A stretch of DNA of 64,000 bases from an uncultured Acidobacteriota bacterium (GCA_963818355.1 CAWFSB010000040.1:86649-150648); one strand, 5' to 3'; positions 36,005 through 64,000 are shown, counted from the first letter of the stretch. Notes: generated by a model from the letters alone, not told the origin. Translations and numbers: made by a program.

Positions 36005-36013
36005 AAGAAGAAG

Positions 36014-38458: not shown

Positions 38459-38466
38459 GCCCGTCC

Positions 38467-38523: not shown

Positions 38524-38598
38524 GGCGGGCCGGCGGCCCTCCGCCCGGCACGAGTCCCGGGGGATACGCGACGACACGCAGCGAACAAGAGCAGAGCA

Positions 38599-42500: not shown

Positions 42501-42885
42501 CTTCCACGGCCACAAGATCGCGATCCTCAACGAGACGTCGGCGTCGGACGGCGACATCTTCCCGCACATGTTCCGCAAGGCCGGGCTCGGCCCGCTGGTC
42601 GGCAAGCGCAGCTGGGGCGGCGTCGTCGGGATCGGCGGCCAGGGGCCGATGATCGACGGCGGCAGCGTGACCGTGCCCTCGAGCGGCACCAACGACGTGG
42701 ACGGCCGGTGGATCATCGAGGGCCAGGGCGTCGAGCCGGACATCGTGGTGGAGAACGACCCGAAGTCGGTGATCGCCGGGCGCGACCCCCAGCTCGAGCG
42801 GGCGGTCGCGGAGCTCGTCAAGAAGATGGACGCCGAGCCGATGACGCTGCCGAAGCGGCCGGCGGACCCGGTGAAGACGCAGTGA
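39563..42885 (+). CDS. tricorn protease homolog (S41B; beta-propellers + PDZ + S41 catalytic domain) (frame breaks near 41308 and 42090)
   Basis: ORF 39563..42145 reads [23 protein letters not shown].. and has FSPDGK-type blades. It continues in ORF 41277..44060 ([36 protein letters not shown]) and then in ORF 42082..42885 ([36 protein letters not shown]). Confidence 0.85.
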
Positions 42886-46755: not shown

Positions 46756-46760
46756 CCGCG

Positions 46761-47180
46761 TCAGGGGTTCGAGCCGACCGTCAGGGGGCGGCCGCTCGTC
46801 AGCCAGCCGCCGAGGCCGCCCGCGAGAACGCGAGCGTCGATGCCCTTCGCCTGCAGTGTGCGCGCCGCCCGGGCGCTCTCGTGCTCGTTCGGTCAGCCAC
46901 AGTAGAGGATCGGCAGCCGGCCCATCTTCCGGATCTCGACCGCCCGTTCCTCGATCTCGCTCGAAGGGATGTTCAGGGCGCCGGGGACGTGGCCCTCGGC
47001 ATACGACTCGCGCGAGCGGACGTCGATCAGCACCGCCTCGCCGCGGTCGCGGCGCTGGAGCGCCTCGGCGAGCGGCATGGCCGCGGCGTCGGGACCGGCG
47101 CCCTGCGGCCAGACGACGCAGCCGACGGCCGCGAGAGTCACGAGGAGGAGCGCGGGCAGTCGTCCGAGTCGGAGCTTCAC
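46761..47180 (-). CDS. rhodanese-domain lipoprotein with an in-frame TGA (complement 46893..46895)
   Basis: ORF 46893..47180 has a GTG start, the lipobox LAAVGC, then VLIDVRSRESYAEGHVPGALNIP..LPILYCG*. The same frame continues after the TGA with PNEHESARAARTLQAKGIDARVLAGGLGGWLTSGRPLTV..*, which is the rest of the rhodanese fold. Confidence 0.65.
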
Positions 47181-47218
47181 GAGACGATCCTAGCATCGGG
47201 CGAGCACTGGACGGCCCC

Positions 47219-48126
47219 ATGATCTCTCGTCCTCGCGCTCTGCTCGGAATCCTGGCTCGGCGGCCGGACCGCCCTCGCCGATCCGGGTCGAGGCCCTCGC
47301 CCGGGAGACGCCGGAGGGCCCGGTTCGCGCCTGGCTCGCCCGCGTCGATCTCAACGACCCGCGCGTCAGCTTCGTCGTCACCGGCCCGCTGGAGCGGCGG
47401 GAGGGCGACCCGGAGCGCGCCGAGGCCCGCCTCGTGCCGACCGACGTCTGGGCCGAGAGAGAGGGCGTCGACCTGGCGGTGAACGCCAGCTTCTTCGCAC
47501 GCCTCGAAGGAGCCGGCGCTCCGGTGCTCGGCTGGACCGACGCGCTGCCGGTGGATCTCGTCGGCCTGTCTCGGAGCGAGGGACGCACGGTCTCCCCGCC
47601 GCGCCGCGGCGGAGGCGTCGAAGCACCCGCCGACCCGGCGCTACTCATCGACGAGGCGAAGGACGGGCACTGCCCGTGCCAGGCACGCGCCGCTCACGCG
47701 GGCGAGAGCGATCTCGACGGCGTCGAGGAAGCGGTGGCGGGCATGGGCGCCCGGAACGGGAACCCGGGCACGCTTCTCGTCGAGAACGGCCGAAACCTCG
47801 GGGCGACCGCCCAGGTGGCACCCACCCAACGTCACCCGCGCACCGCGGCCGGCGTCACTCGCGACGGGCGGACGTTGCTGCTGCTCGTCGTGGACGGCCG
47901 GCAGGCGGGCTGGAGCATCGGCGCCACCCTGCCGGAGCTCGCGCAGACGATGCTCGACGCCGGCGCCTGGAACGCCGTCAACCTCGACGGCGGCGGCTCG
48001 TCCGCGATGTGGCACCGGGAGCCGGGAGCGACGGCCGGACGCGTCCTCAACCGCCCGAGCGACGGCCACGTCCGGCCGGTGGCGAACCACCTGGGCGTGC
48101 GACTCTCGACCGGGCCGCTCCGGTAG
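47219..48126 (+). CDS. phosphodiester glycosidase family protein (NAGPA/DUF2233-like); N-terminal frame uncertain
   Basis: ORF 47434..48126 has AVNASFF, HPRTAAGVTRDGRTLLLLVVDGRQ and AVNLDGGGSS. The frame extends upstream (RVEALARETPEGPVRAWLARVDLNDPRVSF). ATG 47219 lies in a different frame, so there is probably a break near 47260. Confidence 0.6.
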
Positions 48127-48160
48127 CGTCTCCGGACCGCCGGCGCTGTGATCCGCATCC

Positions 48161-51100
48161 TTGACCGACGCGCGCCAGCACCCTAACCTTGCTCACTTGA
48201 TCGAGTCAGCCACTCCAGGGCCGCGGGAGGCCCTCCAGACGGCCGGTACCGCCGTGCCCGAGGTGTCTCCGACCGACATCGCGGTCGTCGGCCGGGCCCT
48301 CCGGGTGCCCGGCGCGCGCAACGTATCCGAATTCTGGGACAACCTTCACCAGGGCAAGGAGTCGATCCGCCGCCTGAGCGACGACGAGCTCCGCGCCCGC
48401 GGGGTGGACCCGGCCCTCCTCGCCGACCCCGCCTACGTGAAGTGGGGCGCCCCGCTCGAGGACCTCGAGCTCTTCGACGCGGGCTTCTTCGGCTTCAGCC
48501 CGCGCGAGGCCGCGATCATGGACCCCCAGCACCGCCACTTCCTCGAGGTGGCCTGGGAGGCGCTCGAGGACGCCGGCCACGCGCCGGAGTCGTTCCCGGG
48601 ACGGATCGGGGTCTTCGCCGGGTCGGGCATGAGCGCCTACATGCCCTACCACCTCTTCACGAACCCGAAGCTGATGGCGTCGGTGGGCCTCTTCCTCGCG
48701 CGGCACACGGGGAACGACAAGGACTTCCTCACCACGCGCGCGTCCTACCTGTTCGACCTGCGCGGCCCCTCGGTCAACGTCCAGACCGCCTGCTCCACCT
48801 CGCTCGTCGCGATCCACGCCGCCGGCCAGAGCCTCGTCAACCACGAGTGCGACCTGGCGCTCGCGGGAGGCGTGACGATCGAGCTGCCCCACGGCCTGGG
48901 CTACCTCTACCACGAGGGCGAGATCCTCTCCGACGACGGGCACTGCCGCGCGTTCGACCGGCGGGCGAAGGGCACGGTCTTCGGGAGCGGGGCCGGCGTC
49001 GTGGTCCTGCGGCGGCTCGGGGACGCGCTCGAGGACGGCGACACCGTCTACGCCGTCGTCAAGGGCTCGGCGGTGAACAACGACGGGGGCCGGAAGGTCG
49101 GCTACCTGGCGCCCAGCGTCGACGGGCAGGCCGAGGCCGTGGCCGAGGCGCTCCACGTCTCCGGCGTGCCGGCCGACTCCGTCACCTACGTCGAGTGCCA
49201 CGGGACGGGGACGCCCGTGGGCGATCCCATCGAGGTGACGGGCCTGACCCAGGCCTTCCGCTCCTTCACCGAGCGCTCGCGCTTCTGCGCCATCGGCTCG
49301 GTCAAGACGAACATCGGCCACCTCGACACCGCGGCGGGTGTCGCGAGCTTCGTCAAGGTCGTGGAGATGCTGCGGCACCGCACCCTGGCGCCGAGCCTGC
49401 ACTTCCGCGAGCCCAACCCCGAGGTCGATTGGGAGAAGACGCCGTTCTTCGTCGCCGACCGGGCGGCGCCGTGGCCCTCGGACGGCCCTCGCCGGGCCGG
49501 CGTCAACTCCCTCGGCGTCGGCGGGACGAACGCCCACGTCGTCGTCGAGGAGGCGGCCGCCCCGCCGCCTCCCGCGCCCTCGCGCGGACCGACGCTCGTC
49601 CTGCTCTCGGCGCGGACGAAGGCCTCGCTCGACCGGGCCACGGCCCGCCTCGCGGACCGGCTGGAGGCCGACCCTTCCCTCGACCTCGCCGACGCGGCCT
49701 TCACTCTGGCCGCGGGTCGGCGCCGCTTCGCCGAGCGCCGCGCCGTCGTGTGCGCGTCGCGCGAGGACGCGGTCGAGGCGCTGCGCTCGCCGGCGAGGCG
49801 GCTCGGCGCCGCGAGCGACCGCTCGGGCACGAAGGTCGCCTTCCTGTTCCCGGGCGGCGGCGCCCAGTACCCCGGGATGGCGTCGGACCTCTACCGATCG
49901 GAGCCGGCCTTCCGGGCGCGGGTGGACGAGTGCCTGGCGCTCCTCCGCACGCGCGAATCTCTCGACCTGCGCCCTCTCATGTTCCCCGTCGCGGGGGCCG
50001 AGGCCGCGGCGGCGGCCGAGCTCCTCCGCCCCTCCCTGGCGCTGCCCGCGCTGCTCACGATCGAGCTGGCCCTCGCGGAGCTGCTGCGGTCGTGGGGCCT
50101 CACGCCCGTCTCGATGATCGGCCACAGCCTCGGCGAGTACGCCGCCGCGCACCTCGCCGGCGTGTTCTCCCTGGCCGACGCGCTCGGCGTCGTGACCTGC
50201 CGCGGCCGGCTCTTCGAGACGCTGCCCGAGGGGGCGATGCTCTCCGTGCCGCTCCCCGAGGCGGAGGTCGCAGCGGATCTTCCCCCCGGCCTGTCCTTCG
50301 CCGCGATCAACGGCCCCGGCCTGTGCCTCGTCTCGGGCGAGGTCGGCCTCATCGCCGGGCTCGAGTCGCGGCTCGCCGCCCGCGGCGTCGAGGCGAAGCG
50401 TCTGGCGATCGCGGTGGCCGCGCACTCGCCGATGCTCGAGCCCATCCTGGGCCCGTTCGAGAAGTACCTGCGATCGCTGCGCCTCGCCGAGCCGACCCTG
50501 CCGTTCGTCTCCAACGTCACGGGCACGTGGATCCGCCCGGAGGAGGCACGCGATCCCGCCTACTGGGTGAGGCACCTCCGTCAGCCCGTGCGCTTCGCCG
50601 ACGGCCTGCAGGCGCTCGTCGCGCAAGGGAGCCCGGCCCTCCTCGAGGTGGGCCCGGGCCGGACGCTCACGTCTCTCGCCCGCTCGCACCCGGCGGTCGG
50701 CGCGGGGAGATCCGTCATCCCGGCGCTGCGGCACCCGCAGGACCCCACGAGCGATCTCGAGGCCGTGCTCGCGGCCATGGGTCAGCTGTGGATGGCGGGC
50801 GTCGATGCCGACTGGCGGGCGTTCTTCGGGCCGGGGCGCCAACGGGTCAGCCTGCCGGCCTACTCGTTCGACCACGAGCGGCACTGGATCGAGCCGGGCG
50901 ACGGCTTCTTCCTCCGACCGGAGAAAGCGACGGCCCTCGCGAGGAACCCGGACCGCTCCGCGTGGACGTACCGGCCGGTGTGGCGGCGGAGCGAGACACC
51001 CCGGCGCCGGGCGGTGGCGGCACGCAACGTCCTCGTGTTCGAGGACGGGACCGGGCTCGGCCGGGAGCTGGCGCTCGAGCTGCGCGCCGCCGGCCACGCG

Positions 51101-54100
51101 GTCGACATCGTGCGGCCGGGCGACGGCTTCGGACGCGACCCGGACGGGGCGTTCCGGCTCCGGCCGGACAGCCGCGAGGATCACGCGGCGCTCCTGCGCG
51201 AGGTGGGCGCGGCCGGACGGACTCCCTCCCAGATCGTCCACCTCTGGGGGGTGAACGAGGACGACGGCCTCGACTCGGCGCTCGAGCGAGGCTTCTTCCC
51301 CCTGGTCCGGCTCGGCCAGGCCCTCCTCGACGAGGAGCCCGCGGGCCGCGTCGAGATCGTGGTCGTGACGAGCGGCGCGGAGGGCGCGGGACGCGACGCT
51401 GCGCCACGCTTCCCCGCCAAGGCGCTCGTGCAGGGCCCGGCGAGCGTTCTCCCACGCGAGCTGCCGTTCGTCTCCTGCCGCTCGGTCGACCTGTCCTCTT
51501 CGCTGGCTCCCACGGCGGCCTTCGCACGGCAGCTCGCCGCCGAGCTGGAGGCGGAGACGGACGAGGGCCGCGTGGCCATCCGCGACGGCGAGCGGCTGGT
51601 CGAGGCCTACGAGCGTTGGCCTCTCGCGGAGGCCACCGTGCCGTGGCGCGAGCAGGGCGTCGTGCTGATCACGGGCGGGCTGGGCGGCCTGTCCCTCGCG
51701 CTCGCCGAGCGCCTCGCGCGCGAGGCGAAGGCCCGCTTCGTCCTCGTCGGCCGCACGGGGCCCGATCCCAGCGACCCCGACGATGCTCGGAGCCGGGCCA
51801 TCCGCGCGATCGAGGCGGCGGGAGGCGAGGTCCTCGTCGTCACGGGAGACGTCGCCGAACCGGCCACCCTGAGGCGCGCCGTGGCGGAGGGCGAGGCGCG
51901 CTTCGGCGCGATCCACGCCGCCGTCCACGCCGCCGGCGTGATCGACGACGGCCCTCTCCACGGGAAGGAGCGCGGGGGCCTCGAGGCCGTGCTGCGACCG
52001 AAGGTGCACGGCGCTCTCGCGCTCGTCGAGGCGCTTCGCGGCCGGAAGCTCGACGCTCTCGTCTTCTTCTCGTCCACGAGCGTGGCCCTCGCCCCCGCCG
52101 GCCAGGTGGACTACGTCGCCGCGAACGCGTTCCTGAACGCCTACGCCCGCCGGCTGGCCGCGGAGGGATGGCCCGCGCGCGTGGTGCAGTGGGGGGCCTG
52201 GCGCGACGTGGGGATGGCCGTGGCGGCGCTGCTGCCCGTCCGCGTGCCGCCGGGGTGCCTGCCGGTCGAGCATCCCCTCCTCCAGCGACGCCTCGAGAGG
52301 GACGGCGAGACCGTCTTTCCCGCCGTCCTCGACGCGAAGCAGCAGTGGGTCCTCGACGAGCACCGCCTCCGCGGCGGCGACCCCGTCCTGCCCGGGACCG
52401 CGTTCGTCGAGATGGCGCGGGCCGCCCTGGCCGCCTCCGCTCCGGCGGACGGCGCGATCGAGATCTCCAACCTGGCGTTCACGGCCCCACTGGTCGTGCC
52501 CGAGGGCGAACCGCGCCTGGTCGAGACGGAGCTGCGCCCCGCGGAGGATGGCTCGGTGGCGATCTCCATCCGAAGCGTGCCGGCCCGCGGGCCGGCCGTC
52601 GAGCACGCGGCGGGCCGTGTGCGCGCGCTCGACGGCTGGGCTCCGGGCACGATCGACGTCGCGAGCCTCGAGGCCCGGTGCACGCTCGGCCGCCAGAGCT
52701 TCGGCCCCGGCGAGCAGAGCCTGCCGCAGGAGCAGGCGCTGGCCTTCGGGCCCCGATGGAAGGCGGTCCGCCGCATGGCCTTCGGCTCGGCGGAGGCGGT
52801 GGCGCACCTCGAGCTGCCGGAGACGCTCGCCGGGGACCTCGAGACGTACGGCCTTCACCCCGGCCTCCTCGACATGGCCACGGGCTTCGCGTTCTCCCTC
52901 GTCGAGGGCGGTGCCACCCTGCACGCGCCGCTGTCGTACGGCCGGCTGCGCGCGGCACAGCACCTGCCCCGCCGGGTCGTCAGCCACGTGCGCCTGCGCC
53001 CCGGGTCCGGCCCGGGAGTCGGCGTCCTCGACGCGACGCTCGCGGACGAGCAGGGTCGGGTGGTGGCCGAGATCGAAGGCTACGTGGTGAAGGCGGTCGA
53101 GCCCGGCGTCCTCGGCCACCGCGCGGAGCCGCGCCCACCGTCGCCGCTCGAGCGCTGGGTCGAGCACGGGATCACCCCCGACGAGGGCTTCGACCTCTTC
53201 CGTCGCGTCCTCGCCCAGGACCGCGAGGTGCAGGTCCTCGTCTCCCCTCTCGATCTTCACTCGATGATCGCGGAGCTGCGCCCGAAGCCACCGGTCACGA
53301 GCCCGGCCCAGCCTGCGACCCCGGCGACCGCATCTCCCGAGGGGGCCGGGACCGCACCCCGCGACGAGATCGAGGCGAAGCTCGCGGCGATGTGGCGCGA
53401 CCTGCTCGGCGTCGAGCAGGTGGGTCTCCACGACGGCTTCTTCGCCCTCGGCGGCCACTCGCTCGTCGCGGTGCGGCTCTTCGCCCGGGTCAAGAAGACG
53501 TGGGGCGTGGACCTGCCGCTCGCCACGCTGTTCGCGGCGCCGACGCTCGAGGCCCTGGCCGCGAGGGTGCGTGAGCCCCTCGGCCTGACCCTCGACACGT
53601 CGAGCCCCGGGGCCGTCGAGCCCGGCTCGCCGCCCGCGAAGACCGGCTGGTCGCCTCTCGTCCTGATCCGCAAGGGAGGCTCGCGGCTGCCGTTCTTCTG
53701 CGTGCACGGCGCCGGCGGGAACCTGCTCGTCTTCCGGGACCTCGCGGAGAGGCTCGGGCCCGAGCAGCCCGTCTACGGCCTCGAGGCCCGCGGCGTCGAC
53801 GGCCACCTCCCGCCCGCGGCGAGCATCGAGGAGATGGCGGAGATCGTATCTCGAGGCGATCCGCGGCGTGCGGCCTCGCGGCCCGTACCTCCTCGGCGGC
53901 TACTCCGGGGGCGGTGTCGTGGCCCTCGAGATGGCCCGGAGGCTGACGGCGGCGGGAGAGCGCGTCAGCCGAGGTCGTGCTCCTCGACACCTTCCACCCC
54001 GCGACCGAGGCGCACAGGACCGCCCTGCGCGATCACCTGAGCGGCCTGGCGGCCGAAGGCATCGCCGTATCTGCCCCGGCGGGCGCGCGCGACGCGCGGC

Positions 54101-54455
54101 CCGGCACCTCTCCAGACTGCCGCAGGAGCTGCGCCTGCGGTACTACCTGAGCCGCGGCCGGCCGCTGCCCCACGACCTGCGCGACGCGCACCTCACCCGG
54201 CACTTCCTCGAGGTCTCGCGCCGCCACGTGCCCGGCCCCTACGGGGGCCGGGTGACGCTCTTCCGAGCCCGCGAGATGGACCGTGTCTACGCGCACATGG
54301 GACCGCGCCTCGGCTGGGAGCCGGTGCTCCTGCTCCCCGTCTCGAGGTTGTCGAAGTGCCCGGGAAACCACGATACTATCGTCCGCGAACCCAACGTCGG
54401 CGTCCTCGCCTCCCTCCTCGAGGATCTCCTACTCCGTGCTTCGTCCGGGAGCTAG
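48161..54455 (+). CDS. type I polyketide synthase, KS-AT-KR-DH-ACP-TE (several frame breaks in the TE region, 53850-54370)
   Basis: ORF 48161..54040. KS: TACSTS (Cys 48791), ECHGTGT, NIGHLDTAAG. AT: GHSLGE (Ser 50126). KR: ITGGLGGLS (~51670) and YVAANAFL. DH: HRLRGGDPVLPG (His 52361). ACP: LGGHSL (Ser 53459). TE: FFCVHGAGGN, GGYSGGG (Ser 53904, ORF 53868..54455) and PGNHDTIV. Confidence 0.9.
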
Positions 54456-54470
54456 AGCCTCGGGCAGGAG

Positions 54471-57400: not shown

Positions 57401-59116
57401 GATCGGGGGCCCACGTCCTCACCCACCTCCTGGGACAGAGCGTCGAAGAGGTTGCGGAGAAGGTGGCTCTCTACCGCCGCGCCTGGCAAGAGGCGGGACA
57501 CCGCGGGTCGGGGACGGTCAGCCTGATGGTCCACGCCTTCGTGGGAGACACGGACGAGGCGGTGAAGGACGTCGTCCGCGGCCCCATGAAGGACTACCTG
57601 CGCAGCGCGGTCGGCCTCGTGCGCGAGGCGGCCTGGTCGTTCCCCACGTTCAAGGAGAAGGCCACGAGCGCGAGCGGGGAGTTCGACCCCGACAGCCTGT
57701 CTCCCGAGGAGATGGACGCGCTCCTGGAGCACGCCTTCGAGCGCTACTTCGCGACGAGCGGGCTCTTCGGCAGCCCCGACACCTGCCGCCGCTTCGTCGA
57801 ACGGCTGGGTGGGATCGGCGTCGACGAGGTGGCCTGCCTCGTGGACTTCGGCGTGCCCAGCGACACCGTGCTCGCCCACCTGCCGCGCCTCGCCGAAGTG
57901 GCGCGGACGTTCGGGAGAGACACCGTTCCCGCGCGCCCTCCGGAGCGCGCCGAGGCCGAGACGATCCCGGCGCTCGTCGAGGCCCACGGCGTCACGCACT
58001 TCCAGTGCACGCCGACGATGGCCCAGATCCTGCTCCAGGACGAGCCCTCGCGGCGCGCGCTCGGGCGCCTGCGCCAGATGCTCGTCGGCGGCGAAGCCCT
58101 GCCGGACCGCCTCGCGCACGAGCTGGCCGGCCTCGTGGGCGGCGTGGTGACCAACGTCTACGGGCCCACGGAGACGACCGTCTGGTCCTCCGTGGCCCGC
58201 GTGCCCCGGGACGGCTCGCCGGTGACCATCGGGTTCCCGATCGCCAACACGAGCCTGCACGTCCTCGACCGCGACGGCCGGCTCGCGCCGGTCGGCCTCG
58301 CCGGCGAGCTGCACATCGGCGGGAGCGGCGTCGTCCGGGGCTACTGGAACCGCCCGGACCTCACCGCCGAGCGCTTCGTGCCGAACCCCTTCGGCGAGGG
58401 CCGCCTCTACCGCACGGGCGACCTCGTGCGCCGTCGCGAGGACGGCGCGCTCGAGTTCCTCGGGCGGCTCGACCACCAGGTGAAGGTCCGCGGCCACCGG
58501 ATCGAGCTCGGGGAGATCGAGGCCCGCCTGGCGGAGCACCCCGGGGTGCGGGAGGCGGTCGTGGTCGCGCGCGACGACGGGGCCGGGGCCGACCTCGTGG
58601 GCTATGTCGTCCCGCGCAACGGCGCGCTCGGCCGAGACGGACCTGCGCGAGCACCTGCGCGCCCGCCTGCCGGAGCACATGATCCCCCGCGCGTTCGTCA
58701 CGCTCTCGGCCCTGCCGATGACGCCAAACCGCAAGATCGACCGCAAGGCGCTCCCCGCGCCCCACCGACATCCCGTCGTCGTCGCCCCCGCGGCGCGACC
58801 GGAGGGGGCTCTCGAGGAGACGATCGCCGCGGTCTGGCGCGAGGTGCTCGAGCTCCCGGACGTGGGGGTCGACACGAACTTCGCCGATCTCGGCGGCCAC
58901 TCGCTGGCGATGGTCCAGGTCCTCGGCAGGCTGAGGGAGCGCGTGGACGCCTCGGTCACCCTCGTGGACCTCTTCCGCCACACCACGATCCGAGCGCTCG
59001 CGCGCTTCCTGGCCGCGAGCGGCAACGAGGACGCGGCCCTGGAGACGAGCGCCTCGCGCGCCACTGCCAGGCGCAACGCCCTCCAGGCTCGCACCCTGAG
59101 GTCACGTCGATCGTGA
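54471..59116 (+). CDS. NRPS 1: formyltransferase domain - C-domain-like remnant - A domain with embedded luciferase-like monooxygenase - PCP (frame breaks near 55300, 55975, 56375, 56540, 58630)
   Basis: F domain: ORF 54471..55526 (SIAHLSMIP..AVNFHDGPLPRYAG..GVTWHEM, His 54762). C-lobe-like region: ORF 55267.. (VDALVAAIAVLTARRSG..FDIAYG..FPAALPLRV). A domain: LTPDATALVF, KAGGAYVPLD, YTSGSTGRPKG (~56599), FDISVLE, then the LLM at 56848-57900 (VDFSLFYFSS..RFADRNGFVAVWTPERHF..), then NVYGPTETT, GELHIGG, YRTGDL, VKVRGHRIELGEIE and PNRKIDRK. PCP: LGGHSL (Ser 58901). Confidence 0.85.
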
Positions 59117-62100
59117 AGACGAGCGGGCCAGGCACGATCACCACGATTGGCGATCGATTCCGGGCAGTGTCGTCTCAGCGCGCGCAGCATCCCGCCCTGG
59201 TCTGGGCTGATGGCAGCCTGACCTACGGAGAGCTCGATCAGCGGTCGACCGCGCTCGCCGGGAGCCTGCAAGCGCTGGGTGTTCGGCCCGGTGATCGGGT
59301 CGGGCTGCACATGACGCGCTCGCCGGAACTGATGCTCGCGATTCTCGCCACGGTCCGCATCGGCGCCGTGTACGTGCCTCTGGAGCCGACCTACCCGGCC
59401 GAGCGCCTGGGATGGATGATGCAGGATGCCGACCTGAGCCTGCTGCTGACTCAGGGGGGATTGCCGCTACTCGCCTCCGTGCCCTGCCCGGCGCGCGACA
59501 TTGCCGACACCCCGGACGGACGGATGACCGGCGTTTCCGTGACTCCGTCAGCGCCGGTCTATGTCATGTACACGTCGGGCTCGACCGGCACCCCCAAGGG
59601 CGTCGTGGTGCCACAGCGCGGCATCCTGCGGCTGGTGTGCGATGTCGACTACGTGCAACTGGATCGCAATACCCGCATCCTGCAGCTGGCGCCCAACTCG
59701 TTCGACGCCGCGACGTTCGAGGTCTGGGGCGCATGGTTGAACGGCGGCACCCTGGTTCTGGCCCCTCCCGGGATTCCCGACCTCGTCACCCTCGGACGCT
59801 TGATCGCGGACGAGCGGATCAACACGATGTGGCTGACGGCATCGCTCTTCAACGTCGTCGTGGACGAGTCGGTCTGGATCCTCCGGCCATTGAGCCAGCT
59901 TCTCACCGGTGGCGAAGCGTTGTCACTCCCGCACGCAGGGCGGGCGATGGCGGCACTGCCCGGCCTCAGGCTCATCAACGGGTACGGCCCCACCGAGAAC
60001 ACCACGTTCACCACCTGCTACACCGTTCCATCGGACATCGACGGGGCTCTACCGTATTCCCCCCTGGGCTACCCGATTCGCGACACCGTCGTGCGCGTGC
60101 TCGACGAGACGTTGCGGCCAGTCCCGTCCGGGGAGGTCGGCGAGCTGTGCCTCGGGGGCGCCGGCGTGGCCCTGGGCTACCTCAACCGGCCGGAACTGAC
60201 CGCCGAGCGCTTCGTTCCCGACCCCGAAGCCCCGGGGACCCTCCTGTATCGCAGCGGAGACCTGGGCCGGCGTCAGCCGGACGGCTTCGTCGAGTTCCAC
60301 GGCCGCCGAGACCAGCAGGTGAAGGTGCGCGGCTATCGCGTCGAGCCGGGCGAAATCGAGGCAGCTCTGGCGCGTATCGAAGGCGTGCGCCAGGCCGTCG
60401 TCGTGCCGCACTCTTCCCCGGGCGGCGATGTGTCGCTGGTGGCGTTCGTCGTCGGCCACGGCGGAGGCGGCGACCCGCATCACCTCCGCGCCCGTCTCGC
60501 CGAGCAACTGCCGGCGTGGATGATCCCGACGCGGTTCGTGCTGCTCGGCGCCCTGCCCCTGAACGCCAATGGCAAGGCCGATCGTCAGCAGCTGCTGGCC
60601 AGCGTCTCCATGTTGGGCGGCCCTCCCCGGCGTGAACTGGCGGACGCGCTCGAGGCCCGGGTACTCGAGATCTACCGAGGGGCGCTCCACGTACCGGATT
60701 GCCAACCCGACGACCGCTTCGTCGATCTCGGCGGGCAGTCGATCCAGGCACTGATGATCGCCAGCCGCCTTGAGCGTGAGTACGGCCGCCGGATTCCGCT
60801 CTGCTGGGTCTACGACTACGGCTCGCCGGCAGCCCTGGCCACGGCATTGCGTGACCGCCCGCCCGAACCCGACCCCATCATGCCGGCGCCGCCGGTCATC
60901 GAACCCACGCCCGGGTTGTCCTTCCCGCAGGAGCGCGTGTGGTTCCTGCAGCAGCGTTACCCGGACTGCCGCGCCTACCACTTCCAGGCGACCTTGGAGT
61001 TCACCGGCGCGCTGGACGTCTCGGCCCTGGAACGGGCGCTGAGCGAGATCGTCCGCCGCCACGCCATCTTGCGCTCGGGGTTCCCGCTCGGTCGCCAGGG
61101 TCCCGAGATGGCCCCGCGTGAGCCGGAACCCGTCGTCCTCGCTCCGCTACGGACAGACGACGTGCCAACACTCTTGGCCGAGGAGTTCCTCGCGCCGATG
61201 GACGTCGTCCACGGCCCGCTCGTCCGCTGGCGACTGCTCCGGCTCGGGCCCGACCGTCACCTGCTCGTGCAGACCGAGCACCACCTGGTGCACGACGGCT
61301 GGTCGTTCAACCTCCTGCTCGACGAGATGCAGGGACTCTACCGCGCTTCCCGGGAGGGCCGGCCCTCGGCCCTTCCCCCGGCGCCCGACTTCGCCGCGGT
61401 GATGAGCGCCTGCCGGGCGCGTTACGAGCGGCGGCGGGGCGAGGACGAGCGCTGGTGGAGGCAGCACCTCGACGGCTGCGCGCCCGCGATGTCGCTGCCC
61501 TGGGATCACGCGCCCTCCGGTCGGGAGTCGTTCGAGGGCCTTACGGTGCGCCTGCCACTGTCGCGGCGCCTGATCGACGCGCACCGGGATCTGGCCCGAG
61601 CGCTCGGCACCACACCCTTCGTGACCCTGCTGAGCGCCTTCCTGATCCTGCTGCACCGCCACAGCGGGCAGCACGACCTGTGTATCGGCAGCGGCGTCGC
61701 CAACCGCACCGACCCGGAGGTCGAGCGCCTGCCCGGCATGCTCGTCAACACCCTGCTGCTGCGTTTCGACCTCGCCGGCGACCCCAGCGTGGCCGAGCTC
61801 GCGCAGCGCGTGCACCGCACGACGTTGGCAGCCTGGGATCACCAGGGCATGCCGTTCGACCGCGTCGTGTCGCTCCTGCGTGAGGACGGCCCGATCGGCG
61901 ATTGGTCGTCGCCGGAGGTGATGTTCAGCGTCCACAACTCGCCTTCCACGCCGATCGATTGGCCCGGCTTGAAGGTCCGCGTGACCGAGGGCCTGAGCTA
62001 CGGCACGGCCAAGGTGCCGCTGAACGTCGTCCTGTTGCCGGCGCATCCCGATCCGGAGGCCCCGGACGATCCGGACGCGCCGGCAATGACGCTGATCTGG

Positions 62101-63294
62101 GAACACTGCACCGCGCGCTTCACCGAACGCACCATGCACGCCTGGCGCGGCGAATACCTCGACCTGCTCGAGCGGCTGCCCCGGTCGGCAGCAGGGCCGA
62201 TCTCGGAGCTCGCGGGCGCCACGGCGAGCCCCCCGGTAGCGACGGCCTCGGCCGCTCCTCCGCCGACGGGAAGCTCGAAGCGGCCTCCACCGTCGGATGA
62301 CCCGCGCGGCGAGTACATCCGCAGCGAGCTGTCCCGCATCTGGGCGGCGTGGTTCGAACGACCGGTTGGCCCCGATGAGCGCTTCTTCGATCTCGGCGGC
62401 CATTCGTTGCTGGCCGTGCGCCTGGTGGTCCGCATCCGCGAGGCGTTCGGGGTCGAGGTGCCGCTGGGGACGTTCTTCGACAACCCTACGATTGGCGGGT
62501 TGGCGGCCACGATTGCCCTCTCGGGCGATGGCGGTGCGCGCGGGCTGTGGCGCAACGTCGCCCCGGGACCACCCATTGCGCCCCTTTGGGCAGTGCCCGG
62601 CGCTCATGCTCGCGAGGAGCATTGGTACGTCCACGCCGCGATCGCCCGGACGTTTCGAAGGAAGCGCCCGGTCCACGTCTTGTACCCGCCACATTCCCGG
62701 AAGCAGCCCGACGTCGAGACCATCGCGTCAGAAGCCGTGGACGCTTTGCGCGACGTCCAGCCGCAGGGCCCCTACGACCTCGTCGGCGACTGCCTCGGTG
62801 GAGTGCTCGCCTTCGAGATCGCCCGCCAGCTGACGGCCCGCGGGTGCACGGTCGGGCGGCTCGTGCTTCTGGATTCCCTGTATCCTGCACGTCGGCCGGG
62901 CTCGAGGCTCGCGCAGGCGGCGAGGGGCTCGACGCGGGCGCGCCGGCTGTGGCTCAGGTGCCTGGCGGGCGGCCACCGGCTGGCGGCGCTGAAGGCGCGA
63001 CTGGACGGACGTGGCGCCACCGCTGGTCGGGAGCACCTGGACCTCGCGCGGCACCTGGTCCCGCCGAGGTACAGCGAGAAGTACACACTCGAGCTCGCCC
63101 GCTACCGCCTTCGGCCCTGGGATGGGGCTCTGGACTACGTCGTCAGCGAGAGTCTCGCCGGGCGCCTCCCTCAGCAGGCCTGGGAGCCTCACGTGGCCGC
63201 GGTCCGCGTGCACCGGGCCGCGGGAGACCACGTCACCTACCTTCGCTCGCGCCTGGAGGACAACCGCGAGCTCCTTCGGTCGTTGCTGGAGTAG
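59113..63294 (+). CDS. NRPS 2: A - PCP - C - PCP - TE (TE nucleophile motif GDCLGG)
   Basis: GTG 59113 overlaps the NRPS-1 stop (GTGA). The gene is uninterrupted in the frame of ORF 56632..63294. A: YTSGSTGTPKG, FDAATFE, NGYGPTENT, YRSGDL, VKVRGYRVEPGEIE. PCP1: LGGQSI (Ser 60739). C: HHLVHDG (61279..61299). PCP2: LGGHSL (Ser 62404). TE: GDCLGG (Cys 62791) and GDH near the C-terminus. Confidence 0.9.
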   Translation: MKTSGPGTITTIGDRFRAVSSQRAQHPALVWADGSLTYGELDQRSTALAGSLQALGVRPGDRVGLHMTRSPELMLAILATVRIGAVYVPLEPTYPAERLGWMMQDADLSLLLTQGGLPLLASVPCPARDIADTPDGRMTGVSVTPSAPVYVMYTSGSTGTPKGVVVPQRGILRLVCDVDYVQLDRNTRILQLAPNSFDAATFEVWGAWLNGGTLVLAPPGIPDLVTLGRLIADERINTMWLTASLFNVVVDESVWILRPLSQLLTGGEALSLPHAGRAMAALPGLRLINGYGPTENTTFTTCYTVPSDIDGALPYSPLGYPIRDTVVRVLDETLRPVPSGEVGELCLGGAGVALGYLNRPELTAERFVPDPEAPGTLLYRSGDLGRRQPDGFVEFHGRRDQQVKVRGYRVEPGEIEAALARIEGVRQAVVVPHSSPGGDVSLVAFVVGHGGGGDPHHLRARLAEQLPAWMIPTRFVLLGALPLNANGKADRQQLLASVSMLGGPPRRELADALEARVLEIYRGALHVPDCQPDDRFVDLGGQSIQALMIASRLEREYGRRIPLCWVYDYGSPAALATALRDRPPEPDPIMPAPPVIEPTPGLSFPQERVWFLQQRYPDCRAYHFQATLEFTGALDVSALERALSEIVRRHAILRSGFPLGRQGPEMAPREPEPVVLAPLRTDDVPTLLAEEFLAPMDVVHGPLVRWRLLRLGPDRHLLVQTEHHLVHDGWSFNLLLDEMQGLYRASREGRPSALPPAPDFAAVMSACRARYERRRGEDERWWRQHLDGCAPAMSLPWDHAPSGRESFEGLTVRLPLSRRLIDAHRDLARALGTTPFVTLLSAFLILLHRHSGQHDLCIGSGVANRTDPEVERLPGMLVNTLLLRFDLAGDPSVAELAQRVHRTTLAAWDHQGMPFDRVVSLLREDGPIGDWSSPEVMFSVHNSPSTPIDWPGLKVRVTEGLSYGTAKVPLNVVLLPAHPDPEAPDDPDAPAMTLIWEHCTARFTERTMHAWRGEYLDLLERLPRSAAGPISELAGATASPPVATASAAPPPTGSSKRPPPSDDPRGEYIRSELSRIWAAWFERPVGPDERFFDLGGHSLLAVRLVVRIREAFGVEVPLGTFFDNPTIGGLAATIALSGDGGARGLWRNVAPGPPIAPLWAVPGAHAREEHWYVHAAIARTFRRKRPVHVLYPPHSRKQPDVETIASEAVDALRDVQPQGPYDLVGDCLGGVLAFEIARQLTARGCTVGRLVLLDSLYPARRPGSRLAQAARGSTRARRLWLRCLAGGHRLAALKARLDGRGATAGREHLDLARHLVPPRYSEKYTLELARYRLRPWDGALDYVVSESLAGRLPQQAWEPHVAAVRVHRAAGDHVTYLRSRLEDNRELLRSLLE

Positions 63295-63338
63295 CCGAGA
63301 GGGCTCGGCGCGGTCGCCTCGCGTGGGCGCCCTGCGAT

Positions 63339-64000
63339 ATGCTCGCGGCCCGGGAGATCGCCATGCTCGACATCCGCCGCATCCGGGATCAGTTCCCCAT
63401 CACCCGCCAGCGCTTCCAGGTGCTCGGCCAGACCGAGCCGAAGCCCCTCATCTACATGGACCACGGGGCGAGCACCCATCCGCCCTCACCCGTGCTCGAC
63501 ACCTACAAGGACTTCCTCGAGCACTCCTACGCGAACGTCCACCGGGGACGCCACTACCTCTCGGAGATGGCCACCGACCGCTTCGAGCACGTCTCGGACG
63601 ACATCTTCCGCTTCATCCACGGGAGCCGCTCCGCGAACACGGTGATCCTGTGCGGGAACACCACCCAGGCCCTCGACCTCGCGGCCCACGTCATGGCGCA
63701 CCGCAAGGGCGTCACCCTCGTGTCGCTGATGGAGCACCACTCGAACGACCTGCCCCACCGCGCGCGGGGCCGGGTCGTCCACTTCGGGGTGAAGGACGAC
63801 GGGACCCTCGACTACGACGACCTCGAGGCGAAGCTGCGCGAGCACGAGGTGAAGCTCGTGGCGGTCACGGGCGCCTCGAACGTGACCGGCTACCTCCCGG
63901 ACATCCACCGCATCGCGCGCATGGCCCACGCCCGCGGGGCGAGGATCCTGATCGACGGCGCCCAGATCCTCGCCCACGCGCCGTTCGACGTGCTCCCCGA
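63339..64000 (+). CDS. class-V PLP-dependent aminotransferase / cysteine-desulfurase-like enzyme (5' part, runs off right edge)
   Basis: Not in the track because it has no stop. The start is ATG 63339 or 63363: MLDIRRIRDQFPI..IYMDHGASTHPPSPVLD..YANVHRGRHYLS..CGNTTQALDL..EHHSNDLP..VTGASNVTG. Confidence 0.75.
   Translation, partial: MLAAREIAMLDIRRIRDQFPITRQRFQVLGQTEPKPLIYMDHGASTHPPSPVLDTYKDFLEHSYANVHRGRHYLSEMATDRFEHVSDDIFRFIHGSRSANTVILCGNTTQALDLAAHVMAHRKGVTLVSLMEHHSNDLPHRARGRVVHFGVKDDGTLDYDDLEAKLREHEVKLVAVTGASNVTGYLPDIHRIARMAHARGARILIDGAQILAHAPFDVLP

What the first reader, a model, noticed from the sequence alone, without database searches (positions are those of the whole stretch)
48161..64000. 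Compact PKS-NRPS cluster whose combined domain set I cannot match to a described pathway
Three collinear genes sit tightly packed: a 15-nt gap between PKS and NRPS-1, then a GTGA overlap into NRPS-2. The PKS is KS-AT-KR-DH-ACP-TE. NRPS-1 is formyltransferase, a C-lobe remnant, an A domain with an inserted luciferase-like monooxygenase, and T. NRPS-2 is A-T-C-T-TE with a Cys nucleophile. A class-V PLP enzyme follows. The cluster therefore holds two release domains, one N-formylation-type domain, one in-line oxidising domain and one module without its own A domain. This points to a small, heavily tailored acyl/formyl Gly-Val-type product rather than a standard lipopeptide line. This is the best candidate in the window for a genuinely new system.
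Basis: partly seen in the sequence, partly recalled or inferred. Interest (0 to 1): 0.75.

Follow-up and report, generated by a model that had tools for sequence, protein, structure and literature searches.

The report
Conserved formyl-glycine NRPS–PKS gene cluster
This is a real, probably intact hybrid peptide/polyketide gene cluster from an uncultured soil-type Acidobacterium whose domain calls all hold, and it belongs to a large, uncharacterised gene family found in about ten bacterial phyla, in about a third of sampled genomes next to cell-surface polysaccharide genes.

Summary
Window 48161-64000 (+) encodes a PKS (KS-AT-KR-DH-ACP-TE). It encodes NRPS-1, which has a formyltransferase, the C-terminal half of a condensation domain, a glycine A domain interrupted by a luciferase-like monooxygenase, and T. 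It encodes NRPS-2 (valine A-T-C-T-TE with a GDCLGG cysteine nucleophile) and a SufS-like PLP enzyme.

The many frameshifts are most likely long-read assembly noise. A 98.7% identical contig is broken at different sites, and an unrelated protease gene upstream is also split.

I found no described pathway with this domain set. But the cluster is not one of a kind:
- The PKS plus NRPS-1 pair recurs in Acidobacteriota, Myxococcota, Chloroflexota, Planctomycetota, Gemmatimonadota, Bacteroidota and others.
- The usual gene order is NRPS-1 then PKS.
- NRPS-1 alone sits in Nostocales polysaccharide loci.
- The cluster continues past the window (methyltransferase, PPTase, Wzz-like gene, another NRPS).

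Best reading (inferred, about 0.45): NRPS-1 makes N-formyl-(alpha-hydroxy)glycyl-S-T and primes the loaderless PKS. NRPS-2, the PLP enzyme and the methyltransferase are lineage-specific additions.

Verdict: new variant of a known kind, moderate interest.

The parts
47194..48126 (+). NAGPA-type phosphodiester glycosidase gene just upstream of the PKS; a flanking gene that may be glycan-related
   Evidence: Pfam PF09992, E 5.7e-33. The same gene is called in L001.
48161..54455 (+). Type I PKS, KS-AT-KR-DH-ACP-TE. The start is TTG 48161 or GTG 48254. KS 48275-49405, AT 49841-50800, KR 51656-52207, DH 52271-53107, ACP 53378-53569, TE 53693-54452. There is no loading domain.
   Evidence: Pfam. Motifs: KS TACSTS/HGTGT/NIGHL, AT GHSLG, DH HxxxGxxxxP. 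TE GYSGGG. The TE region needs 1-nt corrections at about 53846, 53967, 54067 and 54092, and carries window-specific insertions at 54333 and 54359.
54480..59116 (+). NRPS-1, 1539 aa after correction: F - C-terminal lobe of a C domain - A(Gly) interrupted by a luciferase-like monooxygenase - T
   Evidence: Frameshift-aware alignment to the L002 orthologue. Collinear clean orthologues in L002 and L003. Frame errors at 54585, 54638 (2 nt), 55302, 55978, 56372, 56538 and 58627.
54480..55390 (+). Formyltransferase domain with N and C subdomains, ArnA/Fmt-like
   Evidence: Pfam Formyl_trans_N E 7e-12 and Formyl_trans_C E 2.2e-5. Best PDB hits are ArnA and Fmt, E about 1e-16; LgrA scores only 2e-3. 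The NFHDGPLPRYAG motif and the catalytic Asp are invariant or nearly so in 30 orthologues.
55450..56110 (+). Remnant of a condensation domain: C-terminal lobe only, no HHxxxDG
   Evidence: Pfam Condensation profile positions 277-324 in the window (E 1.4e-3) and 401-456 in L024 (E 8.7e-7). hhalign probability 92.5%, E 5e-7, to template columns 202-460 of 479. Poorly conserved among orthologues.
56165..58735 (+). Glycine-type adenylation domain (Stachelhaus DILQLGVVWK), split by the monooxygenase insert
   Evidence: Pfam AMP-binding and AMP-binding_C. Code extracted against GrsA.
56875..57825 (+). Luciferase-like FMN monooxygenase (MOx) inserted between A4 and A5
   Evidence: Pfam Bac_luciferase E 3.3e-43. 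TIGR04020 at 507.9 bits against a cut-off of 244 on the L002 orthologue. PDB 6KET PuwE, E 5.9e-112.
58820..59011 (+). T (PCP) domain of NRPS-1
   Evidence: Pfam PP-binding E 4.1e-17
59113..63294 (+). NRPS-2, 1393 aa, A(Val)-T-C-T-TE. A 59164-60576, T1 Ser at 60739, C from 60916 (HHLVHDG), T2 Ser at 62404, TE 62638-63252 with the nucleophile Cys codon at 62791-62793 (GDCLGG). Its GTG start overlaps the NRPS-1 stop (GTGA at 59113-59116).
   Evidence: Pfam. Motifs. Code DAFWLGGTFK. The Cys is conserved in orthologues P0121-P0124.
63363..64000 (+). SufS-like class-V PLP enzyme, cut off by the end of the window (446 aa in L001)
   Evidence: Pfam Aminotran_5 E 2.4e-37. NCBIfam SufS family at 306 bits, below the 475 cut-off. 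L001 gene 16980-18320.

Best explanation
What it is
The region is a functional hybrid NRPS-PKS biosynthetic cluster. It looks broken only because of long-read indel errors. The source is probably an uncultured Acidobacteriota genome.

The conserved core
- The core is a two-gene cassette that recurs across phyla: NRPS-1 plus a loaderless PKS module.
- NRPS-1 adenylates glycine and loads it on its own T domain.
- Its ArnA/Fmt-type formyltransferase domain N-formylates the tethered glycine. This domain has taken the place of the catalytic N-lobe of an ancestral C domain.
- The FMN monooxygenase embedded in the A domain hydroxylates the carbon next to the thioester. The result is N-formyl-alpha-hydroxyglycyl-S-T or, after hemiaminal collapse, glyoxylyl-S-T.
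- This unit primes the KS of the PKS.
- One or more malonyl extensions with ketoreduction and dehydration give an alpha,beta-unsaturated (vinylogous-glycine or 4-oxo-enoyl type) acyl-ACP. The Ser-TE releases or transfers it.

Lineage-specific additions
- NRPS-2 activates valine. Its A-less second T is loaded in trans. The loader is either the glycine A domain, as in AmbE, or its own Cys-TE acting as an acyl shuttle, as in SyrC/CmaE.
- The SufS-like PLP enzyme and the SAM methyltransferase tailor the product. A Sfp-type PPTase activates the carriers.

Shown and inferred
- Shown: gene and domain architecture, intact catalytic motifs, predicted Gly and Val specificity, cross-phylum conservation, gene order.
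- Inferred: the formyl acceptor, the timing of hydroxylation, the T-to-KS hand-off, the number of PKS cycles, the role of NRPS-2, and the final product.
For: Architecture and motifs.

Indels are errors
- L001 is 98.67% identical with 23 indel differences. Each assembly is in frame and orthologue-like where the other is broken.
- A tricorn protease gene upstream is also split over three frames.

NRPS-1 chemistry
- The Gly code is DILQLGVVWK.
- The MOx insert matches PuwE Ox (PDB 6KET) at E 5.9e-112. PuwE Ox is assigned to hydroxylation alpha to the thioester (PMC4219810).
- Glycine A domains with MOx give alpha-hydroxyglycine in myxothiazol-type and solanimycin pathways.
- The F catalytic Asn-His-Asp is invariant or nearly so in 30 orthologues.

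Direction NRPS-1 to PKS
- NRPS-1 ends in T and has no TE.
- The PKS starts with KS, has no loader and ends in TE.
- In 27 of 38 loci that carry the PKS, the order is NRPS-1 then PKS. In L055 (shared base), L077 (4-nt overlap) and L022 (3-nt gap) the two genes abut.
- The minimal cassette in Myxococcus has no C domain at all, so a KS is the only condensing enzyme available.
- In Nostocales loci a discrete KASIII and SDR sit where the PKS would be.

Accessory genes
- The PLP enzyme, methyltransferase and PPTase travel with the cassette in the closest relatives (L002; L083; L085).
Against: - There is no biochemical evidence for any step.
- The F domain resembles sugar and tRNA formyltransferases far more than LgrA's F domain. 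Its acceptor could therefore be an amino sugar rather than Gly-S-T.
- In the window, and in Myxococcus, the gene order is PKS then NRPS-1.
- The KR-before-DH order resembles iterative PfaA/enediyne-type synthases. The chain length is therefore unknown.
- NRPS-2 starts with an A domain, not a C domain, so it has no obvious entry point for the PKS or NRPS-1 product. Its orthologues also work in unrelated contexts.
- One frameshift (an extra G at 56372, inside the A2 motif) is shared by both assemblies. It could be real.
Confidence: 0.45

Rival explanations
1. Amide-forming release logic, as in MtaG/MelG. The PKS, perhaps acting iteratively, builds an enoyl or polyenoyl chain, and NRPS-2 adds valine. 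The glycine A(MOx) domain loads the A-less T of the C-T-TE unit in trans. Alpha-hydroxylation of the C-terminal glycine then splits off a primary amide, and the Cys-TE clears glyoxylyl-S-T.
For: - MOx-interrupted Gly A domains are described only for alpha-hydroxylation and amide release or a retained hydroxyglycine.
- The cluster family is rich in A-less C-T-TE units. L024 has two, plus an A-T-C... gene.
- NRPS-2 has an A-less T-TE behind an intact C domain.
- Trans-loading of a T in a T-C-T-TE arrangement has a precedent in AmbE (my own knowledge, not checked here).
Against: - NRPS-1 keeps its own T and a strictly conserved formyltransferase. This model does not need either.
- The minimal cassette in Myxococcus and some Acidobacteria has no C domain and no C-T-TE.
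- The PKS carries its own TE.
Confidence: 0.2
2. Glycan-decoration system. The cassette builds a carrier-bound acyl group derived from formyl- or hydroxy-glycine. A hexapeptide-repeat acyltransferase or similar enzyme puts this group on an amino sugar of an exopolysaccharide, O-antigen or glycolipid. The F domain may even formylate the sugar itself. The product is then a cell-surface modification rather than a diffusible metabolite.
For: - In Nostocales, NRPS-1 lies inside a polysaccharide locus with 3 GT4, Bac_transf, hexapeptide transferases, a PglD-like gene and DegT.
- The 76% identical Acidobacteria orthologue P0002 is flanked by Polysacc_synt, WecG, Poly_export, Bac_transf and three Hexapep genes.
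- Among 126 nearest neighbours from 39 loci the commonest families are Hexapep (13 proteins), Bac_transf (5) and Poly_export/SLBB (4). By BLAST clustering, hexapeptide-transferase genes fall in 10 loci and Bac_transf genes in 5 (13 distinct loci), spanning Cyanobacteria, Ignavibacteria, Acidobacteria, Rhodothermales and Myxococcota.
- In the window's own lineage a Wzz/GNVR-like gene follows the PPTase and an NAGPA glycosidase precedes the PKS.
- The F domain is closest to ArnA and to sugar N-formyltransferases.
Against: - Many loci show no glycan genes within 10 kb, for example Myxococcus (L006). L024 (Chloroflexota) has NRPS parts plus a membrane Acyl_transf_3 protein instead of the glycan gene families.
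- The window's cluster itself lacks a hexapeptide transferase or glycosyltransferase between the NAGPA and Wzz-like genes.
- Co-location in about a third of loci is suggestive, not proof. No background rate was computed.
Confidence: 0.2
3. The cluster is a decaying pseudogene array. The frameshifts are real and nothing is made.
For: - There are at least 12 frame disruptions between 53.8 and 58.7 kb.
- Indels and mismatches between the window and L001 concentrate at 53.3-56.5 kb.
- One frameshift (56372) is shared by both assemblies.
Against: - The disruptions are at different sites in two 98.7% identical assemblies. At each site the other assembly restores the orthologue-like reading.
- They are almost all single extra G after C.
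- An unrelated protease gene is split the same way.
- There are no in-frame stops or large deletions.
- Amino-acid identity to orthologues is as high inside the 'broken' genes as in the clean ones.
- NRPS-2 is clean over 4.2 kb. The PKS reads through in one frame from its start to about 53.7 kb, although three 1-nt differences from L001 lie at 49273-49627, where the window is the in-frame copy.
Confidence: 0.07
4. NRPS-2 is an independent small-peptide synthetase. Its single A domain would load both T domains, for example to make a Val-Val product released by the Cys-TE. It is merely co-located and co-transcribed with the cassette.
For: - Orthologues with the same architecture and the GxCxGG nucleophile occur without the PKS or NRPS-1. 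L081 stands alone beside an efflux system. L082 and L084 sit beside aryl-polyene-type clusters.
Against: - NRPS-2 has a GTGA start/stop overlap with NRPS-1.
- It is adjacent to NRPS-1 in relatives L083 and L085.
- An A-T-C... gene follows the PKS in Chloroflexota, Polyangiaceae and Haliangium loci.
Confidence: 0.15

Closest known systems
MtaG / MelG (myxothiazol, melithiazol) and related modules (fischerazole FshJ, crz-like clusters, solanimycin SolF): glycine A domain with an embedded monooxygenase
   Same: - Glycine-type Stachelhaus code.
- Luciferase-like FMN monooxygenase inserted between A4 and A5.
- TIGR04020 family.
- Expected alpha-hydroxylation of the tethered glycine.
   Different: - Those modules are C-A(MOx)-T(-TE) at the end or middle of an assembly line.
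- Here the catalytic N-lobe of the C domain is replaced by a formyltransferase.
- NRPS-1 has no TE.
- The module looks like an initiation module.
LgrA formylating initiation module (linear gramicidin), F-A-T
   Same: - A formyltransferase domain is fused N-terminally to an A-T module.
- The catalytic Asn-His-Asp is present.
   Different: - The F domain here has both subdomains and is far closer to ArnA/Fmt (E about 1e-16) than to LgrA (E 2e-3).
- A C-domain half sits between F and A.
- The A domain carries a monooxygenase.
- This is most likely an independent fusion.
Formyl-glycine-primed polyketides (oxazolomycin OzmO, conglobatin CongA, phthoxazolin): F-A(Gly)-T feeding a KS
   Same: An F-A(Gly)-T unit lies next to a PKS whose first domain is a KS. 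Architectures are recalled from my own knowledge. The phthoxazolin paper surfaced but was not read.
   Different: - No cyclodehydratase gene was seen in the window or L001.
- The KR and DH would remove the beta-keto group needed for an oxazole.
- A MOx domain is present.
- There is a single PKS module with KR-before-DH order.
PuwE Ox domain (puwainaphycin; PDB 6KET)
   Same: Closest solved structure to the monooxygenase insert (377 bits, E 5.9e-112). It is assigned to hydroxylation of the carbon next to the thioester.
   Different: PuwE's domain lies between a PKS module and an aminotransferase/NRPS module and acts on a beta-amino fatty acyl chain. It is not inside an A domain.
Cys-nucleophile alpha/beta-hydrolase domains: SyrC/CmaE aminoacyl shuttles; ObiF/SulM beta-lactone/lactam-forming TEs
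   Same: GxCxG nucleophile in the TE of NRPS-2, conserved in its orthologues. The comparison itself is from my own knowledge.
   Different: - It is fused behind an A-less T.
- The predicted substrate is valine, which has no beta-hydroxyl, so a beta-lactone is unlikely.
- The function is untested.
AmbE (Pseudomonas AMB), ...T-C-T-TE with the last T loaded in trans
   Same: T-C-T-TE arrangement in which the second T has no A domain of its own (from my own knowledge).
   Different: AmbE has additional domains and a Ser-TE context. No sequence comparison was made here.
PfaA / enediyne PKSE-type iterative synthases
   Same: KR precedes DH in the polypeptide. There is a partial hit to TIGR02813 PfaA (344 bits, below the cut-off, scored on the Myxococcus orthologue L006).
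   Different: - A single ACP sits after the DH.
- A TE is fused.
- There are no tandem ACPs and no PPTase domain.
- The KS-AT is closer to modular or mycobacterial type I PKS.

Membership tests
Hybrid NRPS / type I PKS assembly line | KS with Cys-His-His, AT with GHSxG, and carrier domains with the Ser attachment motif | tested here: met
   TACSTS, HGTGT, NIGHL and GHSLG. PP-binding hits and GGxS motifs.
Hybrid NRPS / type I PKS assembly line | A domains with core motifs and a readable specificity code | tested here: met
   AMP-binding and TIGR01733. Codes DILQLGVVWK and DAFWLGGTFK.
Hybrid NRPS / type I PKS assembly line | A Sfp-type PPTase available in the cluster | tested here: met
   Outside the window, but in the 98.7% identical L001: ACPS/AASDHPPT_N gene at 19003-19710. 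HetI-like at 147 bits.
MOx-interrupted glycine modules (MtaG/MelG type) | Luciferase-like monooxygenase inserted in the A domain between A4 and A5, and a glycine code | tested here: met
   TIGR04020 at 507.9 bits against a cut-off of 244.
MOx-interrupted glycine modules (MtaG/MelG type) | A complete upstream C domain that acylates the glycine, and a TE in cis that clears glyoxylate | tested here: not met
   Only the C-terminal lobe is present and there is no HHxxxDG. NRPS-1 ends in T.
MOx-interrupted glycine modules (MtaG/MelG type) | Alpha-hydroxylation of tethered glycine followed by N-C cleavage | not testable with these tools
   Needs enzymology or metabolite analysis.
Formylating NRPS initiation modules (LgrA type) | F domain with catalytic Asn-His-Asp fused N-terminally to A-T | tested here: met
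   Alignment to ArnA. Invariant NFHDGPLPRYAG and Asp in 30 orthologues.
Formylating NRPS initiation modules (LgrA type) | Sequence relationship to the LgrA F domain, with F packed directly on A | tested here: not met
   LgrA E 2e-3 against ArnA/Fmt E about 1e-16. A C-lobe of about 250 aa lies between F and A.
Formylating NRPS initiation modules (LgrA type) | Formyl transfer from 10-formyl-THF to the aminoacyl-S-T | not testable with these tools
   The acceptor could be Gly-S-T or an amino sugar.
Formyl-glycine-primed oxazole polyketide pathways (oxazolomycin/conglobatin type) | F-A(Gly)-T loading unit next to a KS-first PKS | tested here: met
   27 of 38 loci have the order NRPS-1 then PKS.
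Formyl-glycine-primed oxazole polyketide pathways (oxazolomycin/conglobatin type) | A dedicated cyclodehydratase and a retained beta-keto group for oxazole closure | tested here: not met
   No such gene was found among the annotated neighbours in the window or L001. The PKS module has KR and DH.
Cys-nucleophile TE / acyl-shuttle hydrolases | GxCxG in place of GxSxG | tested here: met
   GDCLGG in NRPS-2. GSCVGG, GSCIGG, GECIGG and GECVGG in the orthologues.
Cys-nucleophile TE / acyl-shuttle hydrolases | Carrier-to-carrier transfer or beta-lactone/lactam formation | not testable with these tools
   The Val code argues against a beta-lactone. The rest needs biochemistry.
PfaA/PKSE-like iterative polyene synthases | KR precedes DH | tested here: met
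   Pfam order is KR 1166-1349 then DH 1371-1649. Orthologues show the same order.
PfaA/PKSE-like iterative polyene synthases | Tandem ACPs or an integrated PPTase, and the family HMM above its cut-off | tested here: not met
   There is a single ACP after the DH and a fused TE. TIGR02813 scores 344 bits against a cut-off of 1010 on the orthologous L006 PKS.

The most novel reading that the evidence does not exclude
The conserved F-C*-A(Gly,MOx)-T protein works with a PKS module or with a discrete KASIII and SDR. Together they form an assembly-line system, spread across roughly ten phyla, that builds a formyl- or hydroxy-glycine-derived acyl group for decorating cell-surface polysaccharides or glycolipids. 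This would be a class of glycan modification made by NRPS/PKS logic that has not been described.
Probability: 0.2. Interest if true: 0.8.

Novelty: new variant of a known kind. Interest (0 to 1): 0.55.

Why it matters
All the parts are known kinds of domain. The initiation-module architecture is what I could not find described: a formyltransferase replacing half of a C domain, fused to a monooxygenase-interrupted glycine A domain, paired with a loaderless KS-AT-KR-DH-ACP-TE module.

The module is also conserved at 49-62% identity (tblastn, A(MOx)-T part) across distant phyla, and at 72-80% within Acidobacteriota. That is unusual for secondary metabolism. It hints at a conserved physiological role, possibly in cell-envelope glycans.

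Cultured carriers exist (Myxococcus sp. Y35, Pyxidicoccus fallax DSM 14698, Dolichospermum and Chroococcidiopsis strains). The question can therefore be tested directly. The answer would assign a function to at least 190 protein clusters (at 50% identity) in public data.

Tried and rejected
1. Reading the frame-1 stop at 54040 as the end of the PKS. Rejected: the TE continues in another frame to 54455.
2. A real frameshift in the short-read L002 PKS. Rejected: it is a masked N-run.
3. Nine full-text literature searches. Three combined a formyl(ation/transferase) term with a monooxygenase term. The others tried MOx/interrupted-A terms, domain-order strings, TIGR04020/Atu3671, NRPS with O-antigen acyl groups, solanimycin and PuwE. 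None returned a pathway with this architecture.
4. NCBIfam's best named hit, 'solanimycin SolG'. It is only generic A-T similarity, and SolG is an ordinary serine module.
5. Looking up the window's NRPS-2 by exact sequence failed twice. It differs by one residue from the L001 copy, so the window's own contig is not in that collection.
6. Oxazole-type chemistry was considered and set aside. There is no cyclodehydratase, and KR and DH are present.
7. Beta-lactone release by the Cys-TE was set aside because the A code is valine.
8. No structure prediction was run. The profile-profile comparison already settled the identity of the spacer.
9. The phage, plasmid and E. coli collections were not searched. 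They are irrelevant for a 73% GC acidobacterial locus.

Full report
**1. What is in the sequence**

The window is about 73% G+C, so long spurious ORFs abound. A third-position G+C frame plot and Pfam scans of every long open frame show one continuous run of + strand coding sequence from about 48.1 kb to the end of the window. The reading frame jumps repeatedly between 53.7 and 58.7 kb.

The first gene is a type I PKS:
- KS 39-415, AT 561-880, KR 1166-1349, DH 1371-1649, ACP 1740-1803 and a TE starting at 1845, numbered from TTG 48161.
- The KS has Cys-His-His (TACSTS, HGTGT, NIGHL). The AT has GHSLG. The DH has HxxxGxxxxP.
- The TE continues in another frame (protein 3). After correction it ends at TAG 54453-54455, with nucleophile GYSGGG.
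- The protein starts directly with the KS. There is no loading domain.

**2. NRPS-1**

A GGAGG at 54465-54469 is followed by GTG 54471 and TTG 54480. I prefer the TTG on spacing.

A frameshift-aware alignment against the clean orthologue of L002 yields a 1539-aa protein. It needs seven corrections, at 54585, 54638 (2 nt), 55302, 55978, 56372, 56538 and 58627. The corrected protein is collinear with single ORFs of 1538 and 1541 aa in two Acidobacteriota MAGs.

The domains are as follows.

(i) A formyltransferase with both subdomains (Pfam).
- Its best solved relatives are ArnA and Fmt (E about 1e-16). LgrA's F domain scores only 2e-3.
- The catalytic Asn-x-His and Asp align with ArnA's. They are invariant or nearly so in 30 orthologues.

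(ii) A poorly conserved spacer of about 250 aa that is the C-terminal half of a condensation domain.
- Pfam Condensation matches profile positions 277-324 in the window (E 1.4e-3) and 401-456 in L024 (E 8.7e-7).
- hhalign against real C domains gives probability 92.5% and E 5e-7, over template columns 202-460 of 479.
- The N-lobe with HHxxxDG is absent.

(iii) An A domain with Stachelhaus code DILQLGVVWK. This is glycine-type. The reference numbering was verified on GrsA.

(iv) A luciferase-like FMN monooxygenase inserted in that A domain between A4 and A5.
- Bac_luciferase scores E 3.3e-43.
- TIGR04020 'MupA/Atu3671 family' scores 507.9 bits against a cut-off of 244.
- The closest solved structure is PuwE, PDB 6KET, at E 5.9e-112.

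(v) A C-terminal T domain.

**3. NRPS-2 and what follows**

- The NRPS-1 stop and the NRPS-2 start overlap as GTGA at 59113-59116.
- NRPS-2 (59113-63294, 1393 aa) has no frame errors.
- It reads A (DAFWLGGTFK, valine-type), T (LGGQS), C (HHLVHDG), a second T (LGGHS) with no A domain of its own, and a TE with GDCLGG, a cysteine nucleophile.
- A SufS-like class-V PLP enzyme starts at about 63363 and runs off the window.

**4. The frameshifts are almost certainly assembly noise**

- A protein 99% identical to the window's NRPS-1 core led to ENA contig ERZ25039527:contig_11163, held as L001.
- L001 is 98.67% identical to window 46369-64000, with 23 indel differences.
- The two assemblies are broken at different places. 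L001 is garbled in the KS-AT linker, where the window reads like its orthologues.
- The window is garbled in the TE (for example LLPVSRLSKCPGNHD against LLPRLEVVEVPGNHD in both L001 and L002) and at four NRPS-1 sites where L001 is in frame.
- Most window-specific errors are an extra G after C.
- An unrelated tricorn-protease gene at 39.6-43.7 kb is split over three frames in the same way.
- One extra G, at 56372 inside the LKAGGAYVPLDP motif, is shared by both assemblies. It could be a systematic error or a real lesion. Only better reads can tell.

**5. The locus does not end at 64000**

In L001 the PLP gene (446 aa) is followed by:
- an overlapping spermidine-synthase-like SAM methyltransferase (229 aa);
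- a HetI/Sfp-type PPTase (235 aa);
- a gene on the other strand whose homologues are named polysaccharide chain-length determinants (Wzz/GNVR, PEP-CTERM-associated);
- another + strand NRPS gene that begins with a C-terminal C fragment and an A domain. It is at least 1469 aa on a Logan contig.

Upstream of the PKS lie an NAGPA-type phosphodiester glycosidase, a rhodanese (per the L001 gene call) and a PIG-V-like mannosyltransferase. Beyond them are genes that look unrelated to the cluster.

**6. It is a member of a large, widespread family**

- The A(MOx) core has thousands of relatives at 55-65% identity in metagenomes.
- A scan of one genome per GTDB species returned 79 loci. They come from Acidobacteriota (84% and 76% identity), Myxococcota, Chloroflexota, Planctomycetota, Gemmatimonadota, Cyanobacteria, Bacteroidota/Rhodothermales, Ignavibacteria, Proteobacteria and Omnitrophota.
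- In 59 of the 66 loci with enough upstream sequence, the formyltransferase domain is fused to the A(MOx)-T.
- In 29 of 29 loci examined, NRPS-1 is a single open frame. It is about 1540-1630 aa in 27 of them. The two longer values (1793 and 2068 aa) are stop-to-stop maxima.
- A library-wide search with the F/C* junction alone found 190 clusters at 50% identity. The match nearly always lies at residues about 280-490 of proteins 1150-1600 aa long.
- The PKS with the same KS-AT-KR-DH-ACP-TE order lies next to NRPS-1 in 38 of the 79 loci. It is downstream of NRPS-1 in 27, upstream in 10 and divergent in 1. In L055 (shared base), L077 (4-nt overlap) and L022 (3-nt gap) the two genes abut.

The context varies:
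- Myxococcus sp. Y35 has only the PKS, an alpha/beta-hydrolase and NRPS-1.
- Ca. Leptofilum has Acyl_transf_3, two C-T-TE proteins, NRPS-1, the PKS and an A(Thr)-T-C... gene.
- Cys-nucleophile TEs recur in the family.

**7. NRPS-2 is an accessory**

- Its orthologues keep the architecture and the GxCxGG cysteine.
- Only the closest relatives sit beside NRPS-1. In L083 (74% identity) NRPS-2 follows NRPS-1, with the PLP-MT-PPT genes after three intervening genes. L085 is similar.
- A 69% orthologue stands alone beside a TetR/RND efflux system (L081).
- The 57% and 54% orthologues sit beside aryl-polyene-type clusters (L082 and L084).

**8. A recurrent polysaccharide context**

- In Nostocales, NRPS-1 has no PKS. 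It sits among three GT4 glycosyltransferases, a Bac_transf initiating transferase, hexapeptide acyltransferases, a PglD-like gene, DegT, and a discrete SDR, AMP-ligase and KASIII.
- The 76% identical Acidobacteria locus is embedded between Polysacc_synt, WecG, Poly_export, Bac_transf and three Hexapep genes.
- I scanned 126 nearest-neighbour proteins from 39 non-redundant loci. The commonest families were Hexapep (13), Bac_transf (5), Hydrolase_4 (5) and Poly_export/SLBB (4), followed by GT2, ACPS and DegT.
- Hexapeptide transferases occur in 10 loci and Bac_transf in 5, spread over five phyla.
- I did not compute a background rate, so this is a lead, not a demonstrated enrichment.

**9. How it most likely works**

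Established knowledge:
- MOx-interrupted glycine A domains hydroxylate the glycine alpha-carbon.
- The outcome is either N-C cleavage to an amide plus glyoxylyl-S-T (myxothiazol, melithiazol, fischerazole) or a retained alpha-hydroxyglycine (solanimycin B).
- PuwE's Ox domain is assigned to hydroxylation next to the thioester.

Inference for this locus:
- In NRPS-1 the acyl donor for the glycine nitrogen has been swapped. A peptidyl-T acting through a C domain has been replaced by formyl-THF acting through the F domain.
- Because NRPS-1 ends in T with no TE, the valuable species must be the T-bound one: N-formyl-alpha-hydroxyglycyl or glyoxylyl.
- The only condensing enzyme in the minimal cassette is the KS of a loaderless PKS that ends in a TE.
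- I therefore read NRPS-1 as the initiation module and the PKS as the terminal module. The product would be a short or polyenic alpha,beta-unsaturated acid with a formamido/hydroxy or oxo terminus.
- The KR-before-DH order, as in PfaA and enediyne PKSE, leaves iteration open.

For NRPS-2, its A-less T would be loaded in trans. The precedents are AmbE for the A domain and SyrC/CmaE for Cys hydrolases, both from my own knowledge. The PLP enzyme and methyltransferase pair could install and methylate a thiol by a C-S lyase route. That last point is speculation.

I give the whole scheme about 0.45. The rivals are listed separately: amide-release logic, glycan decoration, an independent NRPS-2, and a dead cluster.

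**10. Comparison and verdict**

- The locus meets the defining features of a hybrid NRPS-PKS line and of MOx-interrupted glycine A domains.
- It fails the MtaG-type feature of a complete C domain with a TE in cis.
- It fails sequence kinship with LgrA's F domain.
- It lacks the cyclodehydratase of the formyl-glycine oxazole pathways.
- No described pathway with this architecture was found in the literature held here, and no specific model exists in NCBIfam. MIBiG could not be queried.

I rate it a new variant of a known kind. It is real, probably functional, uncharacterised and widely conserved rather than unique. Interest is moderate (0.55). It would be higher if the glycan-decoration reading proves right.

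Noticed in passing
window 39563-43665 (+): A tricorn-protease-like gene is split over three reading frames: PD40/DPPIV_N, then Tricorn_C1 plus PDZ, then Peptidase_S41. This shows that 1-nt indel errors run through the whole window, not only the biosynthetic genes.
   Followed up: partly
window 46369-64000 versus L001: Of 23 indel differences, most are a single extra G after a C in the window. Mismatches and indels cluster at 53.3-56.5 kb. This may reflect a systematic base-calling or methylation-motif error, or local low coverage.
   Followed up: partly
window 56372: An extra G in GGCGGGCGCC, inside the conserved LKAGGAYVPLDP motif of the NRPS-1 A domain, is shared by the window and L001. It is the only frameshift that comparing the two assemblies does not resolve.
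   Followed up: partly
L001 19682-22733 (beyond the window end): A Wzz/GNVR-like polysaccharide chain-length determinant lies on the minus strand. After it, a further + strand NRPS begins with a C-terminal C fragment and an A domain. The original gene call there (a 1108-aa minus-strand ORF) looks like a wrong-strand artefact.
   Followed up: partly
L082 and L084: Orthologues of NRPS-2 (A-T-C-T-TE with a Cys nucleophile, 54-57% identity) sit directly beside aryl-polyene-type clusters (ApeI/ApeP-like, Ketoacyl-synt_2, two ACPs, GT2, aromatic ammonia lyase, LolA, MMPL). This suggests the enzyme type has a role of its own with polyene acyl chains.
   Followed up: partly
L004 (record titled Comamonas sp. 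KCTC 72670): Its cassette is collinear with the Myxococcus loci L006-L008 and equally similar to the query. Either the genome is mislabelled or contaminated, or the cassette was recently transferred.
   Followed up: no
L046 13903-14739, L077 18055-18891; L024 3895-4749: In some relatives the TE fused to the PKS itself has a cysteine nucleophile (GLCAGG). One of the two C-T-TE proteins of Chloroflexota loci has GYCMGG while its paralogue has GYSMGG.
   Followed up: no
L049 12710-21772 (Haliangium MAG): The PKS and the following NRPS read as one open frame of more than 3020 aa. This may be a natural fusion of the PKS-TE with the next module.
   Followed up: no
window 34505-39372 (+): This stretch holds a PLP-dependent decarboxylase, an ECF sigma factor with a zf-HC2 anti-sigma factor, and two DUF4097 'toastrack' proteins. 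The genes look ordinary and unrelated.
   Followed up: no
L002 about 6530-6630: A masked run of N inside the PKS of this short-read MAG mimics a frameshift between the DH and ACP.
   Followed up: yes
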